In this document: positions 6,372 through 62,616 of the stretch, piece after piece
How the letters are laid out: the number at the start of each line of letters is the position of its first letter
How positions within the stretch are numbered: the stretch's first letter is position 1
Assembly (NCBI GenBank): GCA_046483985.1
Contig: JAWOCD010000017.1
Coordinates: forward strand, 1 to 64,000
DNA from: Promethearchaeia archaeon
GTDB lineage: Archaea > Asgardarchaeota > Lokiarchaeia > Sigyniarchaeales > SOKP01
Length of the DNA: 64,000 nucleotides
Reading direction: 5' to 3'
Position numbers and translations under genes: made by a program
Notes under the pieces: generated by a model
The model's database searches: none
What the model was told of the DNA's origin: nothing
Seen by the model: the letters and a program-made list of their open reading frames with translations, nothing else

Positions 6372-7715
6372 ATGAAGAAGTTGTTTTATATGTTAGAATT
6401 ACGCTATCAGAAGGGATTGATTATTTTTGAAGGCGAATTTACCATCCCTCTGGCGAGAAAAGATGAAAGGATAAATAAATATGTTGCAGAAGGGATAAAA
6501 TATAAAGAGATCATTAATTATCTTGAAAGTTCAGAAAAACCTTATCGGGATAATGTATTGGATCTTCTTACAGGACTTGCAGATCTTAATTCGAATATTT
6601 CATTACGCCCTTATCAGAAAGAAGCGTTAAAAGCATGGAATGGAGAAAAACGTGGTATTGTTATTATGCCAACAGGGTCGGGAAAAACAATACTTGGTTT
6701 AAAAATTATCGAGCAGATTAATTCGGCAACATTAATTGTAGTTCCCACTTTAGATCTGGTTGCCCAATGGAAGAATGAAATAAAGGAAGCCTTTGATATT
6801 AAAGCAGGGGAATTTACCGGAGATTCCAAGGAGTTAAAAGAAATTACCGTAACCACGTACGATTCTGCATATCTCAATGCCGAATATCTGGGGAATAAAG
6901 TTAGATTAGTCATTTTTGATGAAGTGCATCATTTAGCATCGGAAGGCTATCGACAAATCGCCGAAACTTTTGCAACACCGTTCCGTTTAGGCTTAACTGC
7001 CACCTATGAGAGAGAAGATGGATTACATTCGGTTTTACCTCAAATTGTGGGAGAAGTGGTTTATAGGACTGATATCGACGACTTGGCGGGTGAATACTTG
7101 GCAGATTATAACGTGGAACGCATTTCAATCGAATTTACCCCCGATGAGAAGAAAAAGTATGAAAAAAATCGGAAAATCTTCAGAAATTACCTCATTTCCC
7201 GAAATATACAATTGAATAGTGCTAGTGATTTTCAGAAAATTGTTATGCGTTCTGGAAGAGATCCAGCTGCGAGATCTGCTATATTAGCACATAAAAAAGC
7301 CGAAAAAATTGCATTCAATTCCGAAAACAAAATAAAATTTTTAAGAACTGTTCTAAACAAAGAAGATCGGATAATTATCTTTACAAAATATAATTCGATG
7401 GTGTATAAGATCTCTCAAACTTTTTTTATCCCTTGTATCACCCATAAAACCAGTGCAAGGGAAAGAAAAAGGCTATTAAGGCAATTTCGGGGAGGGAAAT
7501 ACACGGCTATTGTTTCATCTCGGGTGCTCGATGAGGGAATTGATGTTCCAGAAGCCAATATTGGAGTTATAGTGAGCGGGACGGGGAGTGCTCGAGAGTA
7601 TATTCAACGACTGGGGAGATTATTACGGCCAAAGGAGAATAAACAAGCTATACTTTACGAGCTCGTAACGAAAGAGAGCACCGAAATAAACACAGCATAC
7701 AGGAGGAAAACATAA
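6372..7715 (+). CDS. xpb: XPB-family SF2 DNA helicase
   Basis: LRPYQKEAL, PTGSGKT, DEVHH, LGLTAT, RED motif, QRLGRLLR; stop overlaps the start of a Bax1-like gene. Confidence 0.9.
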   Translation: MKKLFYMLELRYQKGLIIFEGEFTIPLARKDERINKYVAEGIKYKEIINYLESSEKPYRDNVLDLLTGLADLNSNISLRPYQKEALKAWNGEKRGIVIMPTGSGKTILGLKIIEQINSATLIVVPTLDLVAQWKNEIKEAFDIKAGEFTGDSKELKEITVTTYDSAYLNAEYLGNKVRLVIFDEVHHLASEGYRQIAETFATPFRLGLTATYEREDGLHSVLPQIVGEVVYRTDIDDLAGEYLADYNVERISIEFTPDEKKKYEKNRKIFRNYLISRNIQLNSASDFQKIVMRSGRDPAARSAILAHKKAEKIAFNSENKIKFLRTVLNKEDRIIIFTKYNSMVYKISQTFFIPCITHKTSARERKRLLRQFRGGKYTAIVSSRVLDEGIDVPEANIGVIVSGTGSAREYIQRLGRLLRPKENKQAILYELVTKESTEINTAYRRKT

Positions 7716-9184
7716 TGTTTCCAAAAAGTTTGCTAAATGTTAGCCGGAGGAAAGGCAATCTCTATCCTAAATATCTAAAATTTTCGGAATATGAGGGGAT
7801 GGTAAAAAATGTTTTAACCCTCTTCCAATCATGTAAAGGGAAAAAATATGGGGTGCTAAAACGAGAAATTAAAAAACTCGAAAATCAAGTTAGTGATTAT
7901 AAAATTGTCAGAGGGTTGAGTACCTTATTAGAGCGAAAATGTACTTTTAGTTCGCCTTATGACATAGAGAGTGAGAAAGTCCGTAACTTTTTATTCAACC
8001 ACGGAATTGTCAAAACGGAGGAGCAGCGGAAAAAGGTCTTATCAAAAGCAAGCAAGTTTTTTGGGATGCCCCCTTCAAATATAGAGAAGGCAATGTTTGC
8101 CGATCTACCAAAAGAGCAAATTCTAACTGATTATAATCTACCAGCACCAATTTCATTATTAAAGTCTTATAATTTATCTCTTACCCAGACTGTGCTTATG
8201 AATTCTTTGGATTTGACTATTTTAATAGACTCTAATTTTCAACAGATATTTCGTCAAATTAATTATTTAGGATTAATGTATGAGACAGATGAAAAGAGCA
8301 TCCAAATTACTGGGCCGCTTTCAATTTTCCGAAAAACACGAAAATACGGAAAAGAAATTGCAAAATTAGTTCCGATAATTTTACACGGTGATTCATGGCA
8401 ATTAAAAGCAACTATAGAGTTAAAATATGGGTCCGAGGCAAAAATTTACGATTTTACTTTAAATTATAAGGATAAAGTTCCCCTTCCTAAGCGAAAGCTT
8501 AATGTCGAACCGTTTGATAGTAACGTGGAGGAACGCTTTTATAAAAAGTTCAAAAGCTTCAAAACCGGCTGGACCATAAAACGAGAGCCTACTTTCGTCA
8601 AAACGGGGGCGTATGTAACAGTACCCGACTTTGGATTCTATAACTACAGTAGGGAGATATTATTAGAAGTGGTAGGATTTTGGACTCCCGAATATCTAAA
8701 GAAAAAGATTGAAAAGCTTAAAAATGCAGATCAGCGCATTATTGCCGCAGTAAACAAGAAATTAAATTGCACGCGGGATGATTTCCCCGGAGAGGTAATT
8801 TTTTATACTAAGGAGATTCCGATAAAACCAATATTACAAATTCTTCAAAAAGCCGAAAAAGAATATATTCAAAATGAAGTTAAGAAACTTGACGATCTAA
8901 ATTTAACTGAAGATGTAGTCTCTGTTAAAGAAAAGGCTCAAGAACTAAATGTAGCGAAAAAAACAATAAAATCACTGAAAATTTCGGGGTATCACTTGGT
9001 GGGAGAAAAATTTATTTCTAATAAATTTTTAAAGGAACTGAAACGGGAAATCGGTCTAAAACGGCAATATTCCAAGATTAAGGAAATACTAGATAAATAT
9101 AATATCTCAAACAGCGTTTTGGATTTATTGGGGTATAAACTCATTTGGAAAGGATTAAAGCCCACCAAAATTGAAGAAATATAA
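7715..9184 (+). CDS. bax1: Bax1 endonuclease (DUF790), partner of XPB
   Basis: GPLSIF..TRKYG, FDSNVEERF, W.IKREP, PDF, LEVVGFWTPEYL PD-(D/E)xK motifs; translationally coupled to xpb. Confidence 0.9.
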   Translation: MFPKSLLNVSRRKGNLYPKYLKFSEYEGMVKNVLTLFQSCKGKKYGVLKREIKKLENQVSDYKIVRGLSTLLERKCTFSSPYDIESEKVRNFLFNHGIVKTEEQRKKVLSKASKFFGMPPSNIEKAMFADLPKEQILTDYNLPAPISLLKSYNLSLTQTVLMNSLDLTILIDSNFQQIFRQINYLGLMYETDEKSIQITGPLSIFRKTRKYGKEIAKLVPIILHGDSWQLKATIELKYGSEAKIYDFTLNYKDKVPLPKRKLNVEPFDSNVEERFYKKFKSFKTGWTIKREPTFVKTGAYVTVPDFGFYNYSREILLEVVGFWTPEYLKKKIEKLKNADQRIIAAVNKKLNCTRDDFPGEVIFYTKEIPIKPILQILQKAEKEYIQNEVKKLDDLNLTEDVVSVKEKAQELNVAKKTIKSLKISGYHLVGEKFISNKFLKELKREIGLKRQYSKIKEILDKYNISNSVLDLLGYKLIWKGLKPTKIEEI

Positions 9185-9212: not shown

Positions 9213-10325
9213 TTATTCCTTCTCTTGAAGCTCTGCTCGCATAAGAAACACATTGTATGGACCCCATTGGGTCATTGTGAAATAAAAAATTCTGCCATTT
9301 TCTTCTGTATATACAGGATGCATATACGCTCCGTATAGTCCCGGATAGTCTATGGCGGAAACTAACTTGAACGGCTTACTCCACGGACCCCACGGATTTA
9401 TGGCTTTTCGCAATTCAATTGAATAAGTTCTTTCATTGAGATAAGTCATGATCCACCGTCCGATATATTCATTCCAGATGACCGATAATTCCCCCACCGG
9501 CGATTTTACGATCGTAAGACCGTTGCTATAATTGGGGCTCCAGATTTCTTGTTGACCTTGGAATCCCGATAAATATTCGTATGCATCTTGAGATTCAATC
9601 TTTTCGCTCGGAACACGCATAAGCTGAACTCCTCCAAATCTACCGCTTGGAATGCTCCAAAAATAGAGATAATCTCCTACAGGGGCGATTGCCGTTTGGA
9701 TGAAATTGCTATCCCCGGGCCACGTAAGATCTTCAAGAATTGTGAAACTATTTCCATTGTCGGTCGATTTTGCTACACCGCAATAGTTTGCATCCCAATG
9801 ACCGTGATCTCCCCACTGGTGAACAGACATAAAGTACAGATAGATATTTCCATTTACAGAAATGCCAGCCGTGGGTATTTTTGTAATTTCATCGCAATGA
9901 GAGGACGAGATAATTTGCTTCGCAACACCAGTTGAGTTCAAGATCATCCCATCAAATATGATACCGTCAGATGCGTTTTTATCACAAGTATATGCCATCG
10001 TATTTGAACGCCACATTTCTCCGCCTGCTCCGAATTGGTCTTCATGACGTGTCCCGAAGGTATCACCAAACACAAAATACATCTTCTGTTCATGTTTGAA
10101 CATGCTTCCAAGATCGGTTCCGTAGACCATGTATTGATCTGTGTGACTAGGGGAATTCTCTCCTGTTAATTGTATAACTTTAGAAACCGAGGCTATTCTT
10201 TGCCCTTCCTCCTCATTAAACAAACGATGAGGGCTTACTATTAATAGTAAACCTCCCAGATCAGCTAAGATGAGGACAGAAATTACTAATACCGAGATAT
10301 TTATTTCTAGAAATTCTTTTCCCAT
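9213..10325 (-). CDS. DUF4185 beta-propeller protein (GH183-like glycoside hydrolase) with N-terminal membrane anchor
   Basis: GTDLG, FGDTF, WRSN, IPT, STDNG, GELSV, GPWS, YGAYMHP motifs. Confidence 0.82.
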   Translation of the reverse strand: MGKEFLEINISVLVISVLILADLGGLLLIVSPHRLFNEEEGQRIASVSKVIQLTGENSPSHTDQYMVYGTDLGSMFKHEQKMYFVFGDTFGTRHEDQFGAGGEMWRSNTMAYTCDKNASDGIIFDGMILNSTGVAKQIISSSHCDEITKIPTAGISVNGNIYLYFMSVHQWGDHGHWDANYCGVAKSTDNGNSFTILEDLTWPGDSNFIQTAIAPVGDYLYFWSIPSGRFGGVQLMRVPSEKIESQDAYEYLSGFQGQQEIWSPNYSNGLTIVKSPVGELSVIWNEYIGRWIMTYLNERTYSIELRKAINPWGPWSKPFKLVSAIDYPGLYGAYMHPVYTEENGRIFYFTMTQWGPYNVFLMRAELQEKE

Positions 10326-10599
10326 TTTCTAATCAAATTAGTATATAGGTTGGTTATCAACCTTAAATTAAAGTTCAGTTTCTTTCTATAATTACGAAAG
10401 ATATTGATGCTAAGGTTTTTCTCAGAACCATTGTATAAGTATAAGATAGATATTAAGCTATTTAAGAATATGGTCTTAAAATATTTAGTGATTTAAACTT
10501 TTCCAAAAAAATGTAAATTAAAATACAAAGAACACAAATATAATTAATAGAAGTACCATAGAAGATTTAAATCAACCATCAATTTCTTCCTCATCCACC

Positions 10600-11496
10600 A
10601 TGATGAAATTTCATCTTGAGCTGATTCCTGCCAACGGGCATATCCAACCCTACGAGATTCCCTACGGATATACCTTTCAGACCGTGATTTTCGGATGGCT
10701 CCACGAACACAATCCTAAATTGTATCACAAGCTTCATACCTACGAGGAGGTCCGCCCTTACTCAATTAACTGCTATATCCATAAAGATGAACCGAAAGTA
10801 GACTTCACAATTGTTGCCTCTAATCAAGCCCTTGCCTCAACGCTGTTGGAAGTGGTAATCCCAAAGAAGGGAACAGCGATTACTGTTGCAAGAAAGAAAT
10901 ATATTGTGGAAGGAGTTGATGTTGAATCCATCATCCTTGAAACCATGCTCAAGCAATCAAAGCCGGTAAAGAGGTTCCATCTCCAATTTGCTACTCCATG
11001 CTATTTTAATACGTTGAAGGGGAACTACCCAATTCGATTTCCGCTTCCAGACGCTCTATTTGGGAATCTTCTAAACATTTGGAAGGCGATGTCCGCGAGC
11101 ACATTTACCTCACGGAAAAAGCAATTCTTATCATGGATTAAAGCACACATCTATCCCAGCAGTTATAAAATGAGATCCGCGTCCTATTTTATTGCACGTG
11201 AGAACCAAGTAGCTGGGGGTCAAGGGTTTGTCTCGTTTTGGATAAATTCACCCGATGACTATTATTATCAGCATAAATTAAAGAAAGATACCCTGACCGC
11301 CCGGGAAAAAACGGAATGCCGTCAAAATCATTTTCAAAATTCTCAACTTATCGATTTTTTATGTAAAGTAGGAGAATATACAAACGTAGGAGGGCATCGG
11401 ACTGCAGGGATGGGTGTGGTTCGCTATTTTCCGAAAGAATATTGTCAGCCCGAAGATTCAGAGACCTTAGCCGAGCCCCTTTTACCAATTACTTGA
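10600..11496 (+). CDS. cas6: CRISPR-associated endoribonuclease Cas6 family (copy A)
   Basis: LH..EEVRPYSI, F.TP, P.PD.LFGNL...W, C-terminal G-rich loop YTNVGGHRTAGMG. Confidence 0.85.
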   Translation: MMKFHLELIPANGHIQPYEIPYGYTFQTVIFGWLHEHNPKLYHKLHTYEEVRPYSINCYIHKDEPKVDFTIVASNQALASTLLEVVIPKKGTAITVARKKYIVEGVDVESIILETMLKQSKPVKRFHLQFATPCYFNTLKGNYPIRFPLPDALFGNLLNIWKAMSASTFTSRKKQFLSWIKAHIYPSSYKMRSASYFIARENQVAGGQGFVSFWINSPDDYYYQHKLKKDTLTAREKTECRQNHFQNSQLIDFLCKVGEYTNVGGHRTAGMGVVRYFPKEYCQPEDSETLAEPLLPIT

Positions 11497-11571
11497 AATA
11501 TTCAATAAATCAAAAACCCAATAAACAAAAAAGAATTATTTTATTCACAAAACAAGAAAGGTAGATAAGAA

Positions 11572-12420
11572 ATGATACAATTCAAGTTTGATCTTTATCC
11601 CAAGGATGGAAATCTCGGAAAGAGAATCCCCTTCGGCTATAAATTCCGCGGAGTCATAATGAAATGGCTTAAGGAGAGTAATCCAGAGTTAGCCAGCGCG
11701 TTTCATTGCCCCGAAAAAGTCCGTCCCTACGCAATCAATACAATCCCCCGTCGAGAACATTCCAAAATCGAGTTTATTCTCACCTCCTATAACGAAAATC
11801 TATCCGATACGGTCATCCAAGACTTATTAAAAAGTGAGAAGACAAAAATCACAGTTGACCATCAGGTGTTTTTTATTGCGAAGATTAGATTCGAACGCCC
11901 GGATTTACTGCAGATGAAAGCTAACGCCTCCCCCATCACGAAATTTCAGATTCATTTCGTCACCCCCATTTATTTAAGCACAATCATGGGGGATTATCCC
12001 TTGCGGTTTCCTATTCCGCAAGCTTTTTTTGGAAATTTAGTCCATCTCTGGAATGAGATGGCCAAAAAGGAGATTAGGATAGCCCGAGATGAACTTATAC
12101 AGTGGATAGATGCCCATATGTATATTAGCGGTTATAAAATGAAAACAGTCAAAAGGCACATTGGAAAGTCCAGACCGCTCGCTGGGGGCATAGGAAATGC
12201 AACCTATCGAATTAAAAAAATAAACACCAACTTTTACAAACATCTCCTTGAAGAACTGGATAAAGAGGACCGGTATGAGGAAGCACAAAATCATTATAGG
12301 GAGAAGTGTTCCCTTATTGATTTACTCTGCAAGGTTGGTACATATACGAATGTGGGAGGAAATCGTACCGCGGGAATGGGTGTTATACGTTACTTTCCAA
12401 AAAACTTCTTAAAAGAATAG
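11572..12420 (+). CDS. cas6: CRISPR-associated endoribonuclease Cas6 family (copy B)
   Basis: FH.PEKVRPYAI, FVTP, PIPQAFFGNLVHLW, G-loop YTNVGGNRTAGMG; colinear paralogue of copy A. Confidence 0.85.
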   Translation: MIQFKFDLYPKDGNLGKRIPFGYKFRGVIMKWLKESNPELASAFHCPEKVRPYAINTIPRREHSKIEFILTSYNENLSDTVIQDLLKSEKTKITVDHQVFFIAKIRFERPDLLQMKANASPITKFQIHFVTPIYLSTIMGDYPLRFPIPQAFFGNLVHLWNEMAKKEIRIARDELIQWIDAHMYISGYKMKTVKRHIGKSRPLAGGIGNATYRIKKINTNFYKHLLEELDKEDRYEEAQNHYREKCSLIDLLCKVGTYTNVGGNRTAGMGVIRYFPKNFLKE

Positions 12421-12421
12421 A

Positions 12422-12745
12422 TTAGGAAGATTTAGATATATTATTTTTTTGTCCTTCGATATAATTGTCACTATACTTTTTTTCATCTTCGCTCCGTCCT
12501 TTTTTTAATTCTTCAAGGAGTTCTTCCCGACTTAATCCCTCTAATGGTTTATAAAATTCATCAAATTTTTCCCAATTTTTCTCTTGCTCAAGATAGCGGG
12601 TGATGAGAAAAGAGACGGCAGCATCAAAATCAACCCGTTCACCTGTTTTCTTCTGTAAATCGGCTGCTACTTTGGGTAATTTTCTTCCGATAATAAAGAT
12701 GATTATAATGATATTCGGTCTCATCATCGTCAAGATCGTTATCAT
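12422..12745 (-). pseudogene. Chimeric or truncated VapB-like antitoxin remnant
   Basis: C-terminal part KVAADLQKKTGERVDFDAAVSFLI...LLEELKKGRSED resembles archaeal VapB. The N-terminus appears to be out-of-frame sequence from another fragment. An overlapping MKKSIV start resembles a deleted vapC. Confidence 0.45.
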
Positions 12746-12838
12746 CTAAATCCTCTTCAATAATTTCATCCACGATATTAAAGGAAGTTTAATATAGATA
12801 ATGGTCGGGTTTAGATTCTGAAGAATTCAGCTCAAAGC

Positions 12839-13633
12839 TTAGTACAATCCGAAGGCAAACCCATGTATCAGCCATGCTTTGGAAATATGCGGATAAATTC
12901 CACGGGAAATGATCATCTTTCTGTCTTCACTTAAGGGTAACTCTCCGTGAAACGCTTGTTTTATGATATTAGGGGTACGGGACCTGCCTAACTTCGAAGC
13001 TCTTTTTTCAAAGTGGGGGATGAGTGGTTCAAGAGAGCAGAACCCTAAATATTTTCCGTTCTTTTCTTGAACAGTAAAGGAATGAAGGATCTGGCTTTCG
13101 TTTGATTCTCCATCGCAACCGGGTCCCAAGATAAGTATCATAAACGGCATTTCAGTTTGTGTAAGGATTTTTACCATTTCTTTATCTCTACCTCTGGATC
13201 CACTTATCGCCCCCTCAATGATTGCATCCCCTCCGGCATCAACGCCGATGACCAAATCAAAACCGAGCGATTCAATATCCCTGGTTAATTGCTCCGAATT
13301 TCTTTTTTTACATCGAAAAATGTAGGGGCACCCACCATATCCCCGAGGGATGCTTCTATCAATCCACGTGTTGCGCATACTAGAAATCGGTCGTTTCCCT
13401 AAATCAATCTGCTTGGGGGGTAATTTGCAAATGTGAGGGGTTATGGGCTCCAAATCATTGTCAAATCCTCTTTTCGTATTGCCGTAGATTATTTCAGTAT
13501 CTTCCAGAAAATCAAATAGAAATTGAGCGCTATATGCAGAAATAATGTCACACCCCCCGCCCAGTCCTAAAATGAGAATTTTATTATAATTTTGAAAATC
13601 AAATGTGAGTGGTTTGTCTAGGAATTGATTCAT
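12839..13633 (-). CDS. DUF1152 family protein
   Basis: GLGGGCD, GVDAGGD, GPGCDGE motifs. Confidence 0.8.
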   Translation of the reverse strand: MNQFLDKPLTFDFQNYNKILILGLGGGCDIISAYSAQFLFDFLEDTEIIYGNTKRGFDNDLEPITPHICKLPPKQIDLGKRPISSMRNTWIDRSIPRGYGGCPYIFRCKKRNSEQLTRDIESLGFDLVIGVDAGGDAIIEGAISGSRGRDKEMVKILTQTEMPFMILILGPGCDGESNESQILHSFTVQEKNGKYLGFCSLEPLIPHFEKRASKLGRSRTPNIIKQAFHGELPLSEDRKMIISRGIYPHISKAWLIHGFAFGLY

Positions 13634-13916
13634 AAGCTACAAAGAAATTTTTAAAATATAAGATTTCTTAATAGAAGAAGGATATTTGGCTTAGAAAGAT
13701 AACGGGCGAAAATATTTCATAGAAGAATAAGACTGGTTGGAATACAAGAATTAGTTTTAGATTTATTACCTTTCGAATTATACACAACGAAACGTATAAG
13801 AAATAAGATCTAATAATGGGGGACCAGAAATAATTTGATTAGCTATGTCAAGCGATTCCACTTACTAAAAAACAGAAAAATAAATAATAATTGGTTATAT
13901 GTTATCGAAATTTATG

Positions 13917-14297
13917 TTAGGGTGGCGATAAAACCAGTTCCATACTTGAAACATTATGTATTTCACCGTTATTAGATTCTAACTTTTCCGTGGTGATAAT
14001 GATATCTTTATACTCCACACCTTCCATAAATCGATGTCGTAAAATTTCGCAAACATCCACCGCTTGTGAGATTGCACGGCCGCGAGCCTTTACTACGCAA
14101 TCCTCTTCCCTCTTTAAGACCGTCAGCGCAGCCATCACATATTTCATCGTAGGTTTCTTACCGATGTAGACGGCGTTCTCATCCTTACTCGTGGTTTTTT
14201 CACTCTGCTTAGTTGTTTCTTCTTCTGTTTCTTCTTCTGTTTTTTCTTCTGTTTTTTCTTCTGTTTTTTCTTCTTCTTTATTATTAAATAAGCCCAT
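13917..14297 (-). CDS. albA: DNA/RNA-binding protein Alba with acidic N-terminal extension
   Basis: VYIGKKP.MKYV, KARGRAIS.AVDV.E, VSSMELVL. Confidence 0.93.
   Translation of the reverse strand: MGLFNNKEEEKTEEKTEEKTEEETEEETTKQSEKTTSKDENAVYIGKKPTMKYVMAALTVLKREEDCVVKARGRAISQAVDVCEILRHRFMEGVEYKDIIITTEKLESNNGEIHNVSSMELVLSPP
14214..14273 (-). repeat. 5 x 12-bp tandem repeat encoding (EEKT)3(EEET)2 in the Alba N-terminal tail
   Basis: Plus strand: TGTTTCTTCTTC x2 then TGTTTTTTCTTC x3. Confidence 0.9.
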
Positions 14298-60586: not shown

Positions 60587-61462
60587 GTGAAGAAGATGCC
60601 GATTAGTGAAGATTTGATAATAATCGAGTCAAAAGCTTATGTGAATATGCTTTTACATGTGTTACGCTTCGGCTCCGATGAACTTGATAAGAAATTATGG
60701 AGAGAGGTAATGGGGGTTTGTGTGGGGGAAATTGATGAGAAAAACGACCAAGTGGTTATCCACGATGCTATTCCTATAACTCACGGAAAAAAGGTGGAAG
60801 TGGAATATTCTGAAAATGACTATGCACGCGTTGAAATGCTTCAAGAGGAGTTTCCCGAGGGACAGTTTATTGTTGGCTGGTATCATTCTCACCCCGGGAT
60901 GGGGCCGTTTCTTTCGGAAGTGGATAAGGTCAATCAAATCTATTGGCAAAATGTGAATGCAAAAGCAGTGGCATTAGTCTTTGATCACACATTGCTTTCA
61001 GATGAGGGGCACGATGGATTGGAGATTTTTCGTCTTACAGACGTGGAAAAAGGAAATAAGAGTGATTTCCATGGCGTTGATTACAAAGTCAAGCCCCCAG
61101 AAGATAAGTCAATTTATCGGAAATTCGTTGAGATAGCAAATAACGTCCATAGAGAAGATCCCATTATGATGGAGGAAGGCGAGGTGGTAGATATGTTTGA
61201 AAAGATGAGCATTGGCACGGCAAAAAAGCCTGAAGAAGATGATCTTAAATCATATGTAATCAATAACACCACGATGATGCTCCAAACTATCAGGGATTTA
61301 AAAAATTCCATGACCACCGGAGTTACCCGATTGCAGAATTGGTTTGAAAAGGGGCTGCGGGAAGGAATAAAGGATCCCCTCAACGACTTAGAATACGAGT
61401 TCTGGCAATTAAAGAAACAGATTAAGAAACAGACTGGAATCGAAGACGATGAAGATTCTTAA
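60587..61462 (+). CDS. MPN+/JAMM metalloprotease, Rpn11/CSN5-like, with C-terminal helical extension
   Basis: MLLH, EVMG, VGWYHSHPG...FLS.VD, Q..WQ, ALVFD. Confidence 0.9.
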   Translation: MKKMPISEDLIIIESKAYVNMLLHVLRFGSDELDKKLWREVMGVCVGEIDEKNDQVVIHDAIPITHGKKVEVEYSENDYARVEMLQEEFPEGQFIVGWYHSHPGMGPFLSEVDKVNQIYWQNVNAKAVALVFDHTLLSDEGHDGLEIFRLTDVEKGNKSDFHGVDYKVKPPEDKSIYRKFVEIANNVHREDPIMMEEGEVVDMFEKMSIGTAKKPEEDDLKSYVINNTTMMLQTIRDLKNSMTTGVTRLQNWFEKGLREGIKDPLNDLEYEFWQLKKQIKKQTGIEDDEDS

Positions 61463-61752: not shown

Positions 61753-61900
61753 AAGTTTTAAGATAATACAATTGGAATGAGAAAATTGTTTACGAAAAAG
61801 TGCACTAGAAAGGTTCTATACCTTTAGAGTGCCGTTATAGCTGAGCTATAACTAGTAAACGAAAAAACTCGATTCCAATTTATAAAACTTTTTTCTTTTC
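61753..61900 (+). ncRNA. Candidate structured ncRNA (multibranch)
   Basis: Nested stems 61770-81/61868-80 and 61786-93/61855-62 enclose hairpins 61802-32 and 61834-52; upstream TATA and downstream T-tract; strand uncertain. Confidence 0.45.
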
Positions 61901-61971: not shown

Positions 61972-62616
61972 TTACTTTTTCTTTAATCCTTTGCAGATCT
62001 TCAATAACCCTTCAAAACCCTCTAATGTCCATTTTCCATCAATACGTCGATATGGAAACTTTTGGCATGCAATAGGCTTTATGGGATGAAGAACACAGAG
62101 GGAATCTTCCAGAAATATACAATCTCCCGTGGGATCTGTTTGAGCAATATACGATAAGCCCAAGTCCATCGCGTGTAGCGTGGTTTGAAAATCTTTCGGA
62201 ACGAATTTAGGCCATGACCACTTATACGGTCTCGGAAATAGATAGATATCTCCCAAAGCTTTGTGTTTGCGATGTTTACCTTCCCCCATATATTCATGAT
62301 GGTTGAAAAGAAAATCGTAAATTTTTTCTGTCTTCGGGATATCAATTAGTTTCGCACATTTTTCAGGATTGTTTCTCACGTATGCCATAAAATCTTCGTC
62401 CCATTCCGATTTCCATGAAGAATTATTCAAGCCAATAATGGAAATCTTTCTCGGATCGACTTGAAGGTTCTTATATACACCAGTTCTACTTTCTTGTTTC
62501 CAAACAAGTAAATCTTCTTTAAAAATAGGAACGTACCACCCTTGACGACAACAATTGCCGCATTGCACGCACTTGAACTTGTACTCCGAATGCTTTGATT
62601 TTTTCATAACTTCCAA
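61972..62616 (-). CDS. YkgJ family CxxCxxCC cysteine-cluster protein with large insertion
   Basis: CVQCGNCC ... CIFL...CVLH..KP.AC..FP. Confidence 0.85.
   Translation of the reverse strand: MEVMKKSKHSEYKFKCVQCGNCCRQGWYVPIFKEDLLVWKQESRTGVYKNLQVDPRKISIIGLNNSSWKSEWDEDFMAYVRNNPEKCAKLIDIPKTEKIYDFLFNHHEYMGEGKHRKHKALGDIYLFPRPYKWSWPKFVPKDFQTTLHAMDLGLSYIAQTDPTGDCIFLEDSLCVLHPIKPIACQKFPYRRIDGKWTLEGFEGLLKICKGLKKK

What the first reader, a model, noticed from the sequence alone, without database searches (positions are those of the whole stretch)
10600..12420. Two tandem orphan cas6 paralogues with no CRISPR array or other cas genes
Seen: two colinear Cas6-family ORFs 75 bp apart. Both have an N-terminal His motif (LH/FH...VRPY.IN), an atypical G-loop (YTNVGG.RTAGMG rather than GxGxxxxxGxG), and a shared charged insert of about 25 aa before the last helix. 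I see no repeat-spacer array, cas1/2/3/5/7/8/10 or csm/cmr genes in about 10 kb upstream and 51 kb downstream. Known: Cas6 cleaves repeat hairpins, often as a dimer, and can act in trans. Inference: either a processing module for distant arrays (possibly two repeat types or a heterodimer), or Cas6 domesticated as a sequence-specific RNase for non-CRISPR RNAs.
Basis: partly seen in the sequence, partly recalled or inferred. Interest (0 to 1): 0.72.

Follow-up and report, generated by a model that had tools for sequence, protein, structure and literature searches.

The report
Stranded tandem Cas6 pair in Lokiarchaeon
Two intact CRISPR RNA-cutting enzymes (Cas6) sit side by side with no other CRISPR parts in this draft genome. 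Related archaea carry the same pair inside ordinary CRISPR loci, or keep cas6 at this same chromosomal spot while the rest of the system lies elsewhere, so this is most likely an ordinary remote-acting processing module, not a new kind of enzyme.

Summary
ORFs 10600-11496 and 11572-12420 are genuine Cas6 proteins by Pfam PF10040, a profile match to PDB 6fjw (E 2e-21) and a confident Cas6-fold model. They are 38% identical to each other.

No array and no other cas gene was found in the window or in the 4.06-Mb, 97%-complete assembly.

The pair is not an oddity of this genome. All seven loci examined that carry a Cas6b also carry a Cas6a just upstream. Five of them lie inside type I or type III-B operons; two of those five (L003, L006) also carry a 37-nt-repeat array.

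The window and three sister MAGs share a stranded arrangement: XPB, Bax1, cas6a, cas6b, then Alba further on. Both genes are under strong purifying selection and keep 83-90% of the columns that are invariant in the other a and b orthologues.

In a neighbouring genus, the only cas6 found also lies beside XPB-Bax1, while cas6-less type I or III modules with the same repeat lie on other contigs.

Best reading: a normal trans-acting crRNA-processing pair, probably a dimer, whose arrays and effectors are unbinned or recently lost. Domestication for non-CRISPR RNA is not excluded but has no positive support.

This scan had already noted an orphan cas6 next to XPB-Bax1, and a cas3 plus cas6 without Cascade, on other genomes.

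The parts
10600..11496 (+). cas6a (298 aa), the faster-evolving paralogue of the pair
   Evidence: PF10040 at 35.2 bits against a cutoff of 25. PADLOC Cas6_IIIa at E 6e-17. Falls in clade a with 100/100 support. 60% identical to the sister MAG orthologue, with pN 0.22 and pS 0.72.
11497..11571 (+). 75-bp cas6a-cas6b spacer
   Evidence: Sequence. One 149-nt piece with no differences, from a metatranscriptome library, spans 11461-11609. This is only a weak hint of co-transcription, because DNA carry-over in the library is not excluded.
11572..12420 (+). cas6b (282 aa), the slower-evolving paralogue
   Evidence: PF10040 at 42.5 bits. A family profile matches PDB 6fjw at E 2.3e-21. The AF2 model has pLDDT 90.9. 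Foldseek gives TM 0.74/0.86 to 6fjw. 77% identical to the sister MAG orthologue, with pN 0.14 and synonymous sites saturated.
6372..9184 (+). XPB helicase (6372-7715) and Bax1/DUF790 nuclease (7715-9184); conserved chromosomal neighbours of cas6 in this family
   Evidence: Pfam matches XPB_DRD/ResIII/ERCC3 and DUF790 (E 1e-117). The same pair lies beside cas6 in L008-L009, L032 (= G015) and L034 (= G030).
9213..10325 (-). DUF4185 gene lying between Bax1 and cas6a; absent at this position in the sister MAGs
   Evidence: Pfam DUF4185 at E 1e-90. L008 and L009 have Bax1 directly followed by cas6a.
10343..10498 (.). Fragment of a dispersed repeat in the cas6a upstream region
   Evidence: 28 further blastn matches at 71-91% identity on 18 contigs of the same genome. 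The other copies share longer flanks that this copy lacks.
12422..14297 (-). Downstream genes: a 107-aa ORF, DUF1152 (12839-13633) and Alba (13917-14297)
   Evidence: ORFs and Pfam. L008-L010 have a similar gene series (111 aa, 248 aa, then Alba) downstream of cas6b. Only Alba was confirmed as homologous, at 93% identity.

Best explanation
These are two functional Cas6 pre-crRNA endoribonucleases. They descend from an old duplication (a and b) that is characteristic of one clade of Lokiarchaeal CRISPR-Cas systems. They probably act as a dimer on the family's 37-nt repeat, which ends in ATTGAAAT. In this lineage the pair is encoded at a conserved housekeeping site next to XPB-Bax1, away from any effector or adaptation genes, so it would work in trans on arrays elsewhere. 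In this particular assembly the arrays and effector modules are missing. My rough split is about 35% that they were not binned or assembled and about 20% that they were lost recently. Shown: Cas6 family membership and fold, conservation of the pair, the stranded synteny, purifying selection, absence of partners from the assembly, and the in-trans layout in a sister genus. Inferred: catalytic activity, dimerisation, the substrate, and the reason the partners are missing.
For: Both proteins are Cas6 by Pfam, PADLOC, PDB profile and predicted fold. The putative catalytic His and the G-rich loop are conserved.

All 7 loci examined that carry a Cas6b have a Cas6a upstream on the same strand. Five of these sit in type I operons (cas8b-cas7-cas5-cas3) or type III-B (cmr) operons. 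Two of the five, L003 and L006, also carry arrays of one repeat family.

The tree has two mirrored 100/100 clades. In each, the window and L008 are sister to the operon-linked pairs.

The stranded layout XPB, Bax1, cas6a, cas6b, then Alba is shared with three MAGs at 77% and 60% identity. Synonymous sites are saturated while pN is 0.14-0.22. The pair retains 105 of 117 and 78 of 94 columns invariant in the other orthologues.

In G030 (99% complete) the only cas6 found lies beside XPB-Bax1 on contig C49. Contig C225 carries cas1, cas2, cas4, cas7 (two copies), cas5 and cas3 with no cas6, and ends in a Loki-type repeat. G015 is analogous, with a type III module and array on C81.

The dimer model scored 0.71 against a best control of 0.47. 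That mark was reached by 58 of 80 solved complexes and 2 of 110 mismatched pairs. The runs agree in at least 96% of contacts and the partner's pLDDT is at least 83. The interface falls on the conserved GDYPxRFPxP and AHxYxSGYKM motifs.
Against: No array, no solitary repeat (best nhmmer E 1.1 with a profile of 21 Lokiarchaeal repeat variants) and no other cas gene is present in a MAG rated 97% complete. In-trans processing therefore has no visible substrate in this genome.

I could not check whether the three sister MAGs have CRISPR loci, because they are not held. If they lack them too, long-term retention without CRISPR would favour a different role.

The dimer pass may reflect the model's memory of solved Cas6 homodimers. 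It cannot separate a heterodimer from two homodimers, and the same interface motifs occur in the single-copy Cas6 relatives.
Confidence: 0.55

Rival explanations
1. Domesticated Cas6: the genome truly lacks CRISPR-Cas, and the pair is kept for a CRISPR-independent job, such as sequence-specific processing or binding of a cellular or mobile-element RNA.
For: No cas partners or arrays are in the 97%-complete assembly. The same stranded site persists across lineages whose synonymous sites are saturated, under purifying selection. Another family member, G010 (99% complete), has cas6 plus csm6 but no Cas1, Cas7 or RAMP match.
Against: There is no shift in constrained residues relative to the other orthologues; the changes are mostly conservative, such as R to K, Q to K and Y to F. 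No candidate substrate resembling the repeat exists in the genome. Sister-genus genomes show that the same site hosts a cas6 serving remote CRISPR modules, which explains the selection without any new function. MAG binning commonly drops arrays and islands (general knowledge).
Confidence: 0.22
2. Standby or mobile-element-facing module: the pair is retained to process arrays brought in by plasmids, viruses or newly acquired cas cassettes. This would let CRISPR modules come and go while cas6 stays chromosomal.
For: One repeat family is shared by the type I locus L003, the type III-B locus L006 and the L005 array. Effector types vary between relatives while cas6 is the recurrent element. A cas6 next to XPB-Bax1 is seen in two genera.
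Against: This is purely inferential. No mobile-element-borne array was seen in this genome, and the idea is hard to distinguish from the best explanation.
Confidence: 0.13
3. Decaying remnant of a deleted CRISPR-Cas locus with no remaining function.
For: All other cas genes are missing from the assembly. A DUF4185 gene and a fragment of a dispersed repeat have been inserted just upstream.
Against: Both ORFs are intact and full length. pN is far below pS against orthologues in the same stranded context. The invariant His, the G-loop and 83-90% of family-invariant columns are kept. Two 100%-identical pieces from an RNA library lie on the locus (weak).
Confidence: 0.07

Closest known systems
Stand-alone Cas6 of type III and type I-A/I-B systems (S. 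thermophilus Cas6, PDB 6fjw; T. thermophilus Cas6A/Cas6B, PDB 4c8z/4c9d)
   Same: Same Pfam family and the same double ferredoxin-like fold, with TM 0.74/0.86 to 6fjw. The conserved His lies in the LH..PY motif and there is a C-terminal G-rich loop. These enzymes act as free proteins and can serve several effector complexes (review PMC5965381).
   Different: A helical, charged insert of about 23-25 aa before the last helix. The first Gly of the G-loop is Asn. The gene is always duplicated in tandem in this clade. In this genome it is encoded with no CRISPR partner in the assembly.
Genomes with several Cas6 paralogues (Sulfolobus solfataricus, PMC4041471; T. thermophilus Cas6-1/Cas6-2, PMC12102369; Anabaena, bioRxiv 10.1101/2020.04.14.041012)
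   Same: More than one Cas6 per genome. Cas6 enzymes are encoded apart from the arrays they process. Homodimeric Cas6 forms are known (PMC3652601; PMC5965381).
   Different: Judging from the titles and abstracts returned, the paralogues in those organisms belong to different loci or repeat classes. Here a and b are adjacent, co-inherited and have mirrored phylogenies. No paper in the searched library uses 'cas6 heterodimer' or 'tandem cas6'.
Single-copy Lokiarchaeal cas6 beside XPB-Bax1 (G030 contig C49, G015 contig C36)
   Same: Same protein family at 48-52% identity, the same chromosomal neighbours and no adjacent cas operon.
   Different: They are single-copy, not duplicated. Their genomes do contain cas6-less type I or III modules and Loki-type repeats on other contigs, whereas none is found in the window's genome.

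Membership tests
Cas6 (PF10040, CRISPR-associated endoribonuclease) | Significant match to curated family models | tested here: met
   PF10040 at 35.2 and 42.5 bits against a cutoff of 25. Multiple PADLOC Cas6 models down to E 1e-16. The TIGR01877 match is below its cutoff.
Cas6 (PF10040, CRISPR-associated endoribonuclease) | Two tandem ferredoxin-like (RRM/RAMP) domains | tested here: met
   The AF2 model of Cas6b has pLDDT 90.9 and pTM 0.89. The top 30+ Foldseek PDB hits are all Cas6, with 6fjw at E 6e-18 and TM 0.74/0.86. Cas6a was not folded on its own but is 38% identical to Cas6b.
Cas6 (PF10040, CRISPR-associated endoribonuclease) | C-terminal glycine-rich loop (GxGxxxxxGxG) | tested here: met
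   The loop is N-V-G-G-(H/N)-R-T-A-G-M-G. G262, T266 and G270 are invariant in 43 sequences, and the first Gly is replaced by Asn.
Cas6 (PF10040, CRISPR-associated endoribonuclease) | Catalytic histidine in the N-terminal domain | tested here: met
   H45 (Cas6b) and H46 (Cas6a) are invariant in the family alignment and align with the LH of 6fjw and 4c98. That this His is the catalytic residue of T. thermophilus Cas6 is from my memory, not tested.
Cas6 (PF10040, CRISPR-associated endoribonuclease) | Metal-independent cleavage within the CRISPR repeat, 8 nt upstream of the spacer | not testable with these tools
   Needs a biochemical assay. The relatives' repeats end in ATTGAAAT, consistent with an 8-nt tag.
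Cas6 (PF10040, CRISPR-associated endoribonuclease) | Co-occurrence with a CRISPR array and type I/III/IV effector genes in the same genome | tested here: not met
   None was found in the 128 contigs. The feature is met for orthologues in L003, L006, L011, L013 and L030. The assembly is a MAG, so absence is not proven.
Dimeric Cas6 (as in T. thermophilus, S. solfataricus and M. maripaludis Cas6b) | Stable protein-protein interface between two Cas6 protomers | tested here: inconclusive
   The a+b model scored 0.71 against a best control of 0.47. That mark was reached by 58 of 80 solved complexes and 2 of 110 mismatched pairs. Contact agreement is at least 96% and the partner's pLDDT is at least 83. 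The pass may stem from solved Cas6 homodimers. Homo- versus heterodimer was not resolved.

The most novel reading that the evidence does not exclude
Cas6a and Cas6b form an obligate heterodimeric Cas6, a form not described in the literature I searched. In CRISPR-less Lokiarchaeia such as this one, the heterodimer has been kept at the XPB-Bax1 site for a host function, such as processing or sequestering a non-CRISPR RNA.
Probability: 0.12. Interest if true: 0.7.

Novelty: new member of a known kind. Interest (0 to 1): 0.36.

Why it matters
If the pair simply serves unassembled arrays, the finding is routine. It does still document a clade-wide tandem Cas6a/Cas6b architecture in Lokiarchaeal type I and III-B systems, and a recurrent chromosomal home for cas6 beside XPB-Bax1. 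Both are useful for annotating Asgard CRISPR systems and for assigning arrays to hosts in virus-host studies.

If closed genomes show the lineage is truly CRISPR-less, this would be a clean natural case of a Cas6 retained under selection without CRISPR. It would also be a tractable system for asking what else a Cas6 can do. The predicted a/b dimer would be worth a direct test either way.

Tried and rejected
1. A 14/15 match to the 3' end of the Lokiarchaeal repeat lies at 10558-10572, 28 nt upstream of cas6a. I rejected it. It is not among the 40 best-scoring hits of the repeat-profile scan of the genome, whose best E-value is 1.1, and the rest of the 37-mer does not match.

2. All k-mer array candidates on nine contigs (C10, C25, C26, C32, C37, C51, C54, C116, C127) are coding or spacer-less tandem repeats. 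In the relaxed two-copy scan, the only CRISPR-like item is C52:3134-3233, two 32-nt repeats around a spacer of about 36 nt. It is unlike the family repeat and has no third copy.

3. The proteins of about 720 aa that lie convergent to cas6 in L011, L027 and L032 looked like a possible conserved partner, but they are unrelated to each other.

4. The sister MAGs (L008-L010) could not be searched for cas genes because they are not held.

5. 61760-61890 is strongly structured (z -8.8). Both are single-copy, have no Rfam family and show no similarity to the repeat. Nothing links them to Cas6.

6. Sequencing runs: only small shares of the locus were held (0.06-0.09 of the sampled words). Short pieces with no differences were found in one sediment, one freshwater-sediment and one salt-lake metatranscriptome run. 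This is too little to name a habitat or to show expression.

7. Earlier notes of this scan for this genome returned no CRISPR array.

Full report
**Observation.** The window holds two co-directional ORFs, 10600-11496 (298 aa, here Cas6a) and 11572-12420 (282 aa, Cas6b), separated by 75 bp.
- Both pass Pfam's gathering cutoff for PF10040 CRISPR_Cas6, with 35.2 and 42.5 bits against 25, and hit several PADLOC Cas6 models.
- They are 38% identical over their full length.
- A 43-sequence family alignment shows an invariant His (H45 in Cas6b, H46 in Cas6a) in the LH/FH..VRPY motif.
- The same alignment shows a conserved C-terminal loop, N-V-G-G-x-R-T-A-G-M-G. This is the canonical Cas6 G-rich loop with its first Gly replaced by Asn.
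- A profile of that alignment finds S. thermophilus Cas6 (6fjw) at E 2.3e-21 and T. thermophilus Cas6B (4c98) at E 1.9e-9. The printed 6fjw alignment exposes an insert of about 23 residues before the last helix.
- An AlphaFold2 model of Cas6b is confident (pLDDT 90.9, pTM 0.89). Its best PDB matches are all Cas6, with 6fjw at TM 0.74/0.86.

**Absence of partners.** The window is G000:C126:1-64000 of a 4.06-Mb, 128-contig MAG rated 97.1% complete and 4.8% contaminated.
- TRF and Rfam find no array in the window.
- My k-mer scan of all contigs found only spacer-less tandem repeats. A relaxed two-copy scan added nothing convincing.
- Genome-wide family searches found only the two PF10040 hits. 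There was no Cas1, Cas2, Cas5d, Cas7, RAMP, Cas10 or Csm6 match.
- tblastn with Cas proteins taken from the closest Lokiarchaeal CRISPR loci gave no credible cas match beyond the Cas6 pair. The only other hits were short cold-shock-domain matches to Cmr6 and two marginal ones.
- An nhmmer profile of 21 variants of the family's repeat found nothing better than E 1.1.

At the level of this assembly the pair is orphan. Marker-gene completeness says little about arrays and variable islands, so absence from the organism is not proven.

**What relatives show.** A protein search returned 42 relatives, with source names pointing to Promethearchaeia/Lokiarchaeia. Genomic contexts were decisive.
- In L003 and L011 the order is cas1, cas2, cas4, a beta-CASP-like gene, cas8b, cas7, cas5, cas3, cas6a, cas6b. 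L003 has a 15-repeat array immediately downstream.
- L013 and L030 are further type I variants that end in the same cas6a-cas6b pair.
- L006 has a complete cmr1-6/cas10 type III-B operon, a mini-array, the pair, and a 74-repeat array.
- The repeat is one family throughout: 37 nt ending in GAAGATTGAAAT, consistent with an 8-nt ATTGAAAT tag.
- In all seven loci that carry a Cas6b orthologue, a Cas6a lies just upstream on the same strand.
- A maximum-likelihood tree gives two 100/100 clades, a and b, with mirrored internal topology. Single-copy Lokiarchaeal Cas6 fall outside both clades.

The tandem pair is therefore an old, co-inherited feature of a clade of ordinary CRISPR-Cas systems. It is not a peculiarity of this window.

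**The stranded context is inherited.** The closest relatives are three NCBI MAGs (Cas6b 77% identical, Cas6a 60%). They have XPB, Bax1(DUF790), cas6a, cas6b, two small minus-strand genes, then Alba, with no cas genes or arrays on contigs of up to 15.6 kb. The window has the same order, with two additions between Bax1 and cas6a:
- a DUF4185 gene (9213-10325);
- a 156-bp fragment of a dispersed repeat.

Between the two lineages synonymous sites are saturated (pS 0.72 and 0.89) while pN is 0.22 and 0.14, so both genes have been under purifying selection in this context. In the tree, the window and L008 form the sister group of the operon-linked pairs in both clades. Of the columns invariant in the other orthologues, the stranded pair keeps 105 of 117 (b) and 78 of 94 (a). 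The differences are mostly conservative. Nothing suggests decay or a change of specificity.

**Why in-trans processing is the favoured reading.** I surveyed 60 related genomes and then fetched selected contigs.
- In G030 (99% complete) the only cas6 match lies on contig C49, 1.3 kb from a divergent XPB-Bax1. Contig C225 carries cas1, cas2, cas4, cas7 (two copies), cas5 and cas3 with no cas6, and ends in a Loki-type repeat.
- In G015 (100% complete) the only cas6 lies two genes from Bax1-XPB. A RAMP-rich type III module with a Loki-type array is on C81, and a cas2/cas4 adaptation block (with the genome's only Cas1 match) is on C197.
- So in a sister genus, a cas6 next to XPB-Bax1 is evidently the processing enzyme for remote, cas6-less modules. 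It is seen in relatives, though not in the window's own assembly.
- G010 (99% complete) has cas6 next to csm6 but no Cas1, Cas7 or RAMP match. Cas6 without detectable effectors therefore recurs, whether for biological or for binning reasons.

**Dimer.** A complex prediction of Cas6a with Cas6b, each supplied with its own alignment, scored 0.71 against a best control of 0.47.
- That mark was reached by 58 of 80 solved complexes and 2 of 110 mismatched pairs. The runs agree in at least 96% of contacts and the partner's pLDDT is at least 83.
- The interface is pseudo-symmetric, covering residues about 140-149 and 181-193 of each chain. It coincides with the most conserved motifs, GDYPxRFPxP and AHxYxSGYKM.
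- Cas6 homodimers have been solved (PMC3652601; PMC5965381), and the same motifs occur in single-copy relatives. The result therefore supports dimerisation in general and does not discriminate a heterodimer from homodimers.
- No paper in the searched library mentions a Cas6 heterodimer or tandem cas6.

**Expression.** Only small shares of the locus are held in public runs. Two 151-nt contigs from a salt-lake metatranscriptome library, both without differences, cover 11461-11741 and include the a-b spacer. This is a weak hint of transcription, because DNA carry-over is not excluded.

**Verdict.** The best explanation (about 0.55) is a normal trans-acting Cas6a/Cas6b processing module at a conserved XPB-Bax1-adjacent site, whose arrays and effectors are missing from this MAG or were lost recently.

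The rivals are a CRISPR-independent role (about 0.22), a standby module for incoming arrays (about 0.13) and a dead remnant (about 0.07).

The proteins are new members of a known family. The clade-wide tandem architecture and the possible heterodimer are modestly new details. Earlier notes of this scan on other genomes had already flagged an orphan cas6 next to XPB-Bax1 and a cas3 plus cas6 without Cascade. I re-derived both arrangements from the relatives' own sequence. The cas6-less effector operons elsewhere belong to G030 and G015, which I cannot match to the genomes behind those notes.

Noticed in passing
window 6372-9184 with L008, L032/L033 (G015) and L034 (G030): cas6 lies within 0-2 genes of the XPB-Bax1 helicase-nuclease pair in three different arrangements: co-directional downstream, convergent, and divergent. 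This holds across at least two genera. It could be shared ancestral synteny or a functional link; I did not resolve which.
   Followed up: partly
window 10343-10498: A 156-bp stretch upstream of cas6a is a fragment of a dispersed repeat, with 28 further matches on 18 contigs. The full copies share longer flanks whose right side (..CATCTCC.TCCTAAAGG) resembles the C127/C76 tandem units and the IS200/IS605-type ends noted elsewhere in this genome.
   Followed up: partly
window 61760-61890: A strongly structured, nested multi-hairpin element (MFE -39.6 kcal/mol, z -8.8 on the + strand). It sits in the gap between ORFs 60587-61462 and 61972-62616, is single-copy in the genome and has no Rfam match.
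   Followed up: partly
L008 about 8870-8950 (upstream of cas6a in the sister MAG): Two direct repeats of about 29 nt (GTAAGGAAACAGCTC.AATAAG.TAAAAG) with starts 43 nt apart, plus a weaker third copy. They have a faint resemblance to the middle of the CRISPR repeat (..AGCT.CAA.TA.G..). They may be degenerate repeat relics or a regulatory site. They are not present in the window.
   Followed up: no
own genome G000:C52:3134-3233: Two identical 32-nt repeats separated by about 36 nt of unique sequence, lying roughly 115 nt from the contig end. The repeat is unlike the Lokiarchaeal CRISPR repeat and there is no third copy.
   Followed up: partly
L027 (G010:C59) 9442-11701: A single-copy cas6 lies directly next to a Csm6 (CARF-6H-HEPN) gene, in a 99%-complete genome with no Cas1, Cas7 or RAMP match. 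This is another stranded CRISPR accessory pair.
   Followed up: partly
L003 118-1976, L011 492-2349, L031, L036, L037, L041, L044: A metallo-beta-lactamase-type gene of about 390 aa, with only a weak Pfam hit to Anti-Pycsar_Apyc1, is conserved next to cas4 in many Lokiarchaeal adaptation blocks.
   Followed up: no
L003 12730-20867: Downstream of the type I array lies a defence island. It holds a TIR-like protein, a SMODS plus SAVED (CBASS-like) pair, a HEPN_Swt1-like protein and a large RNase_T-domain protein.
   Followed up: no
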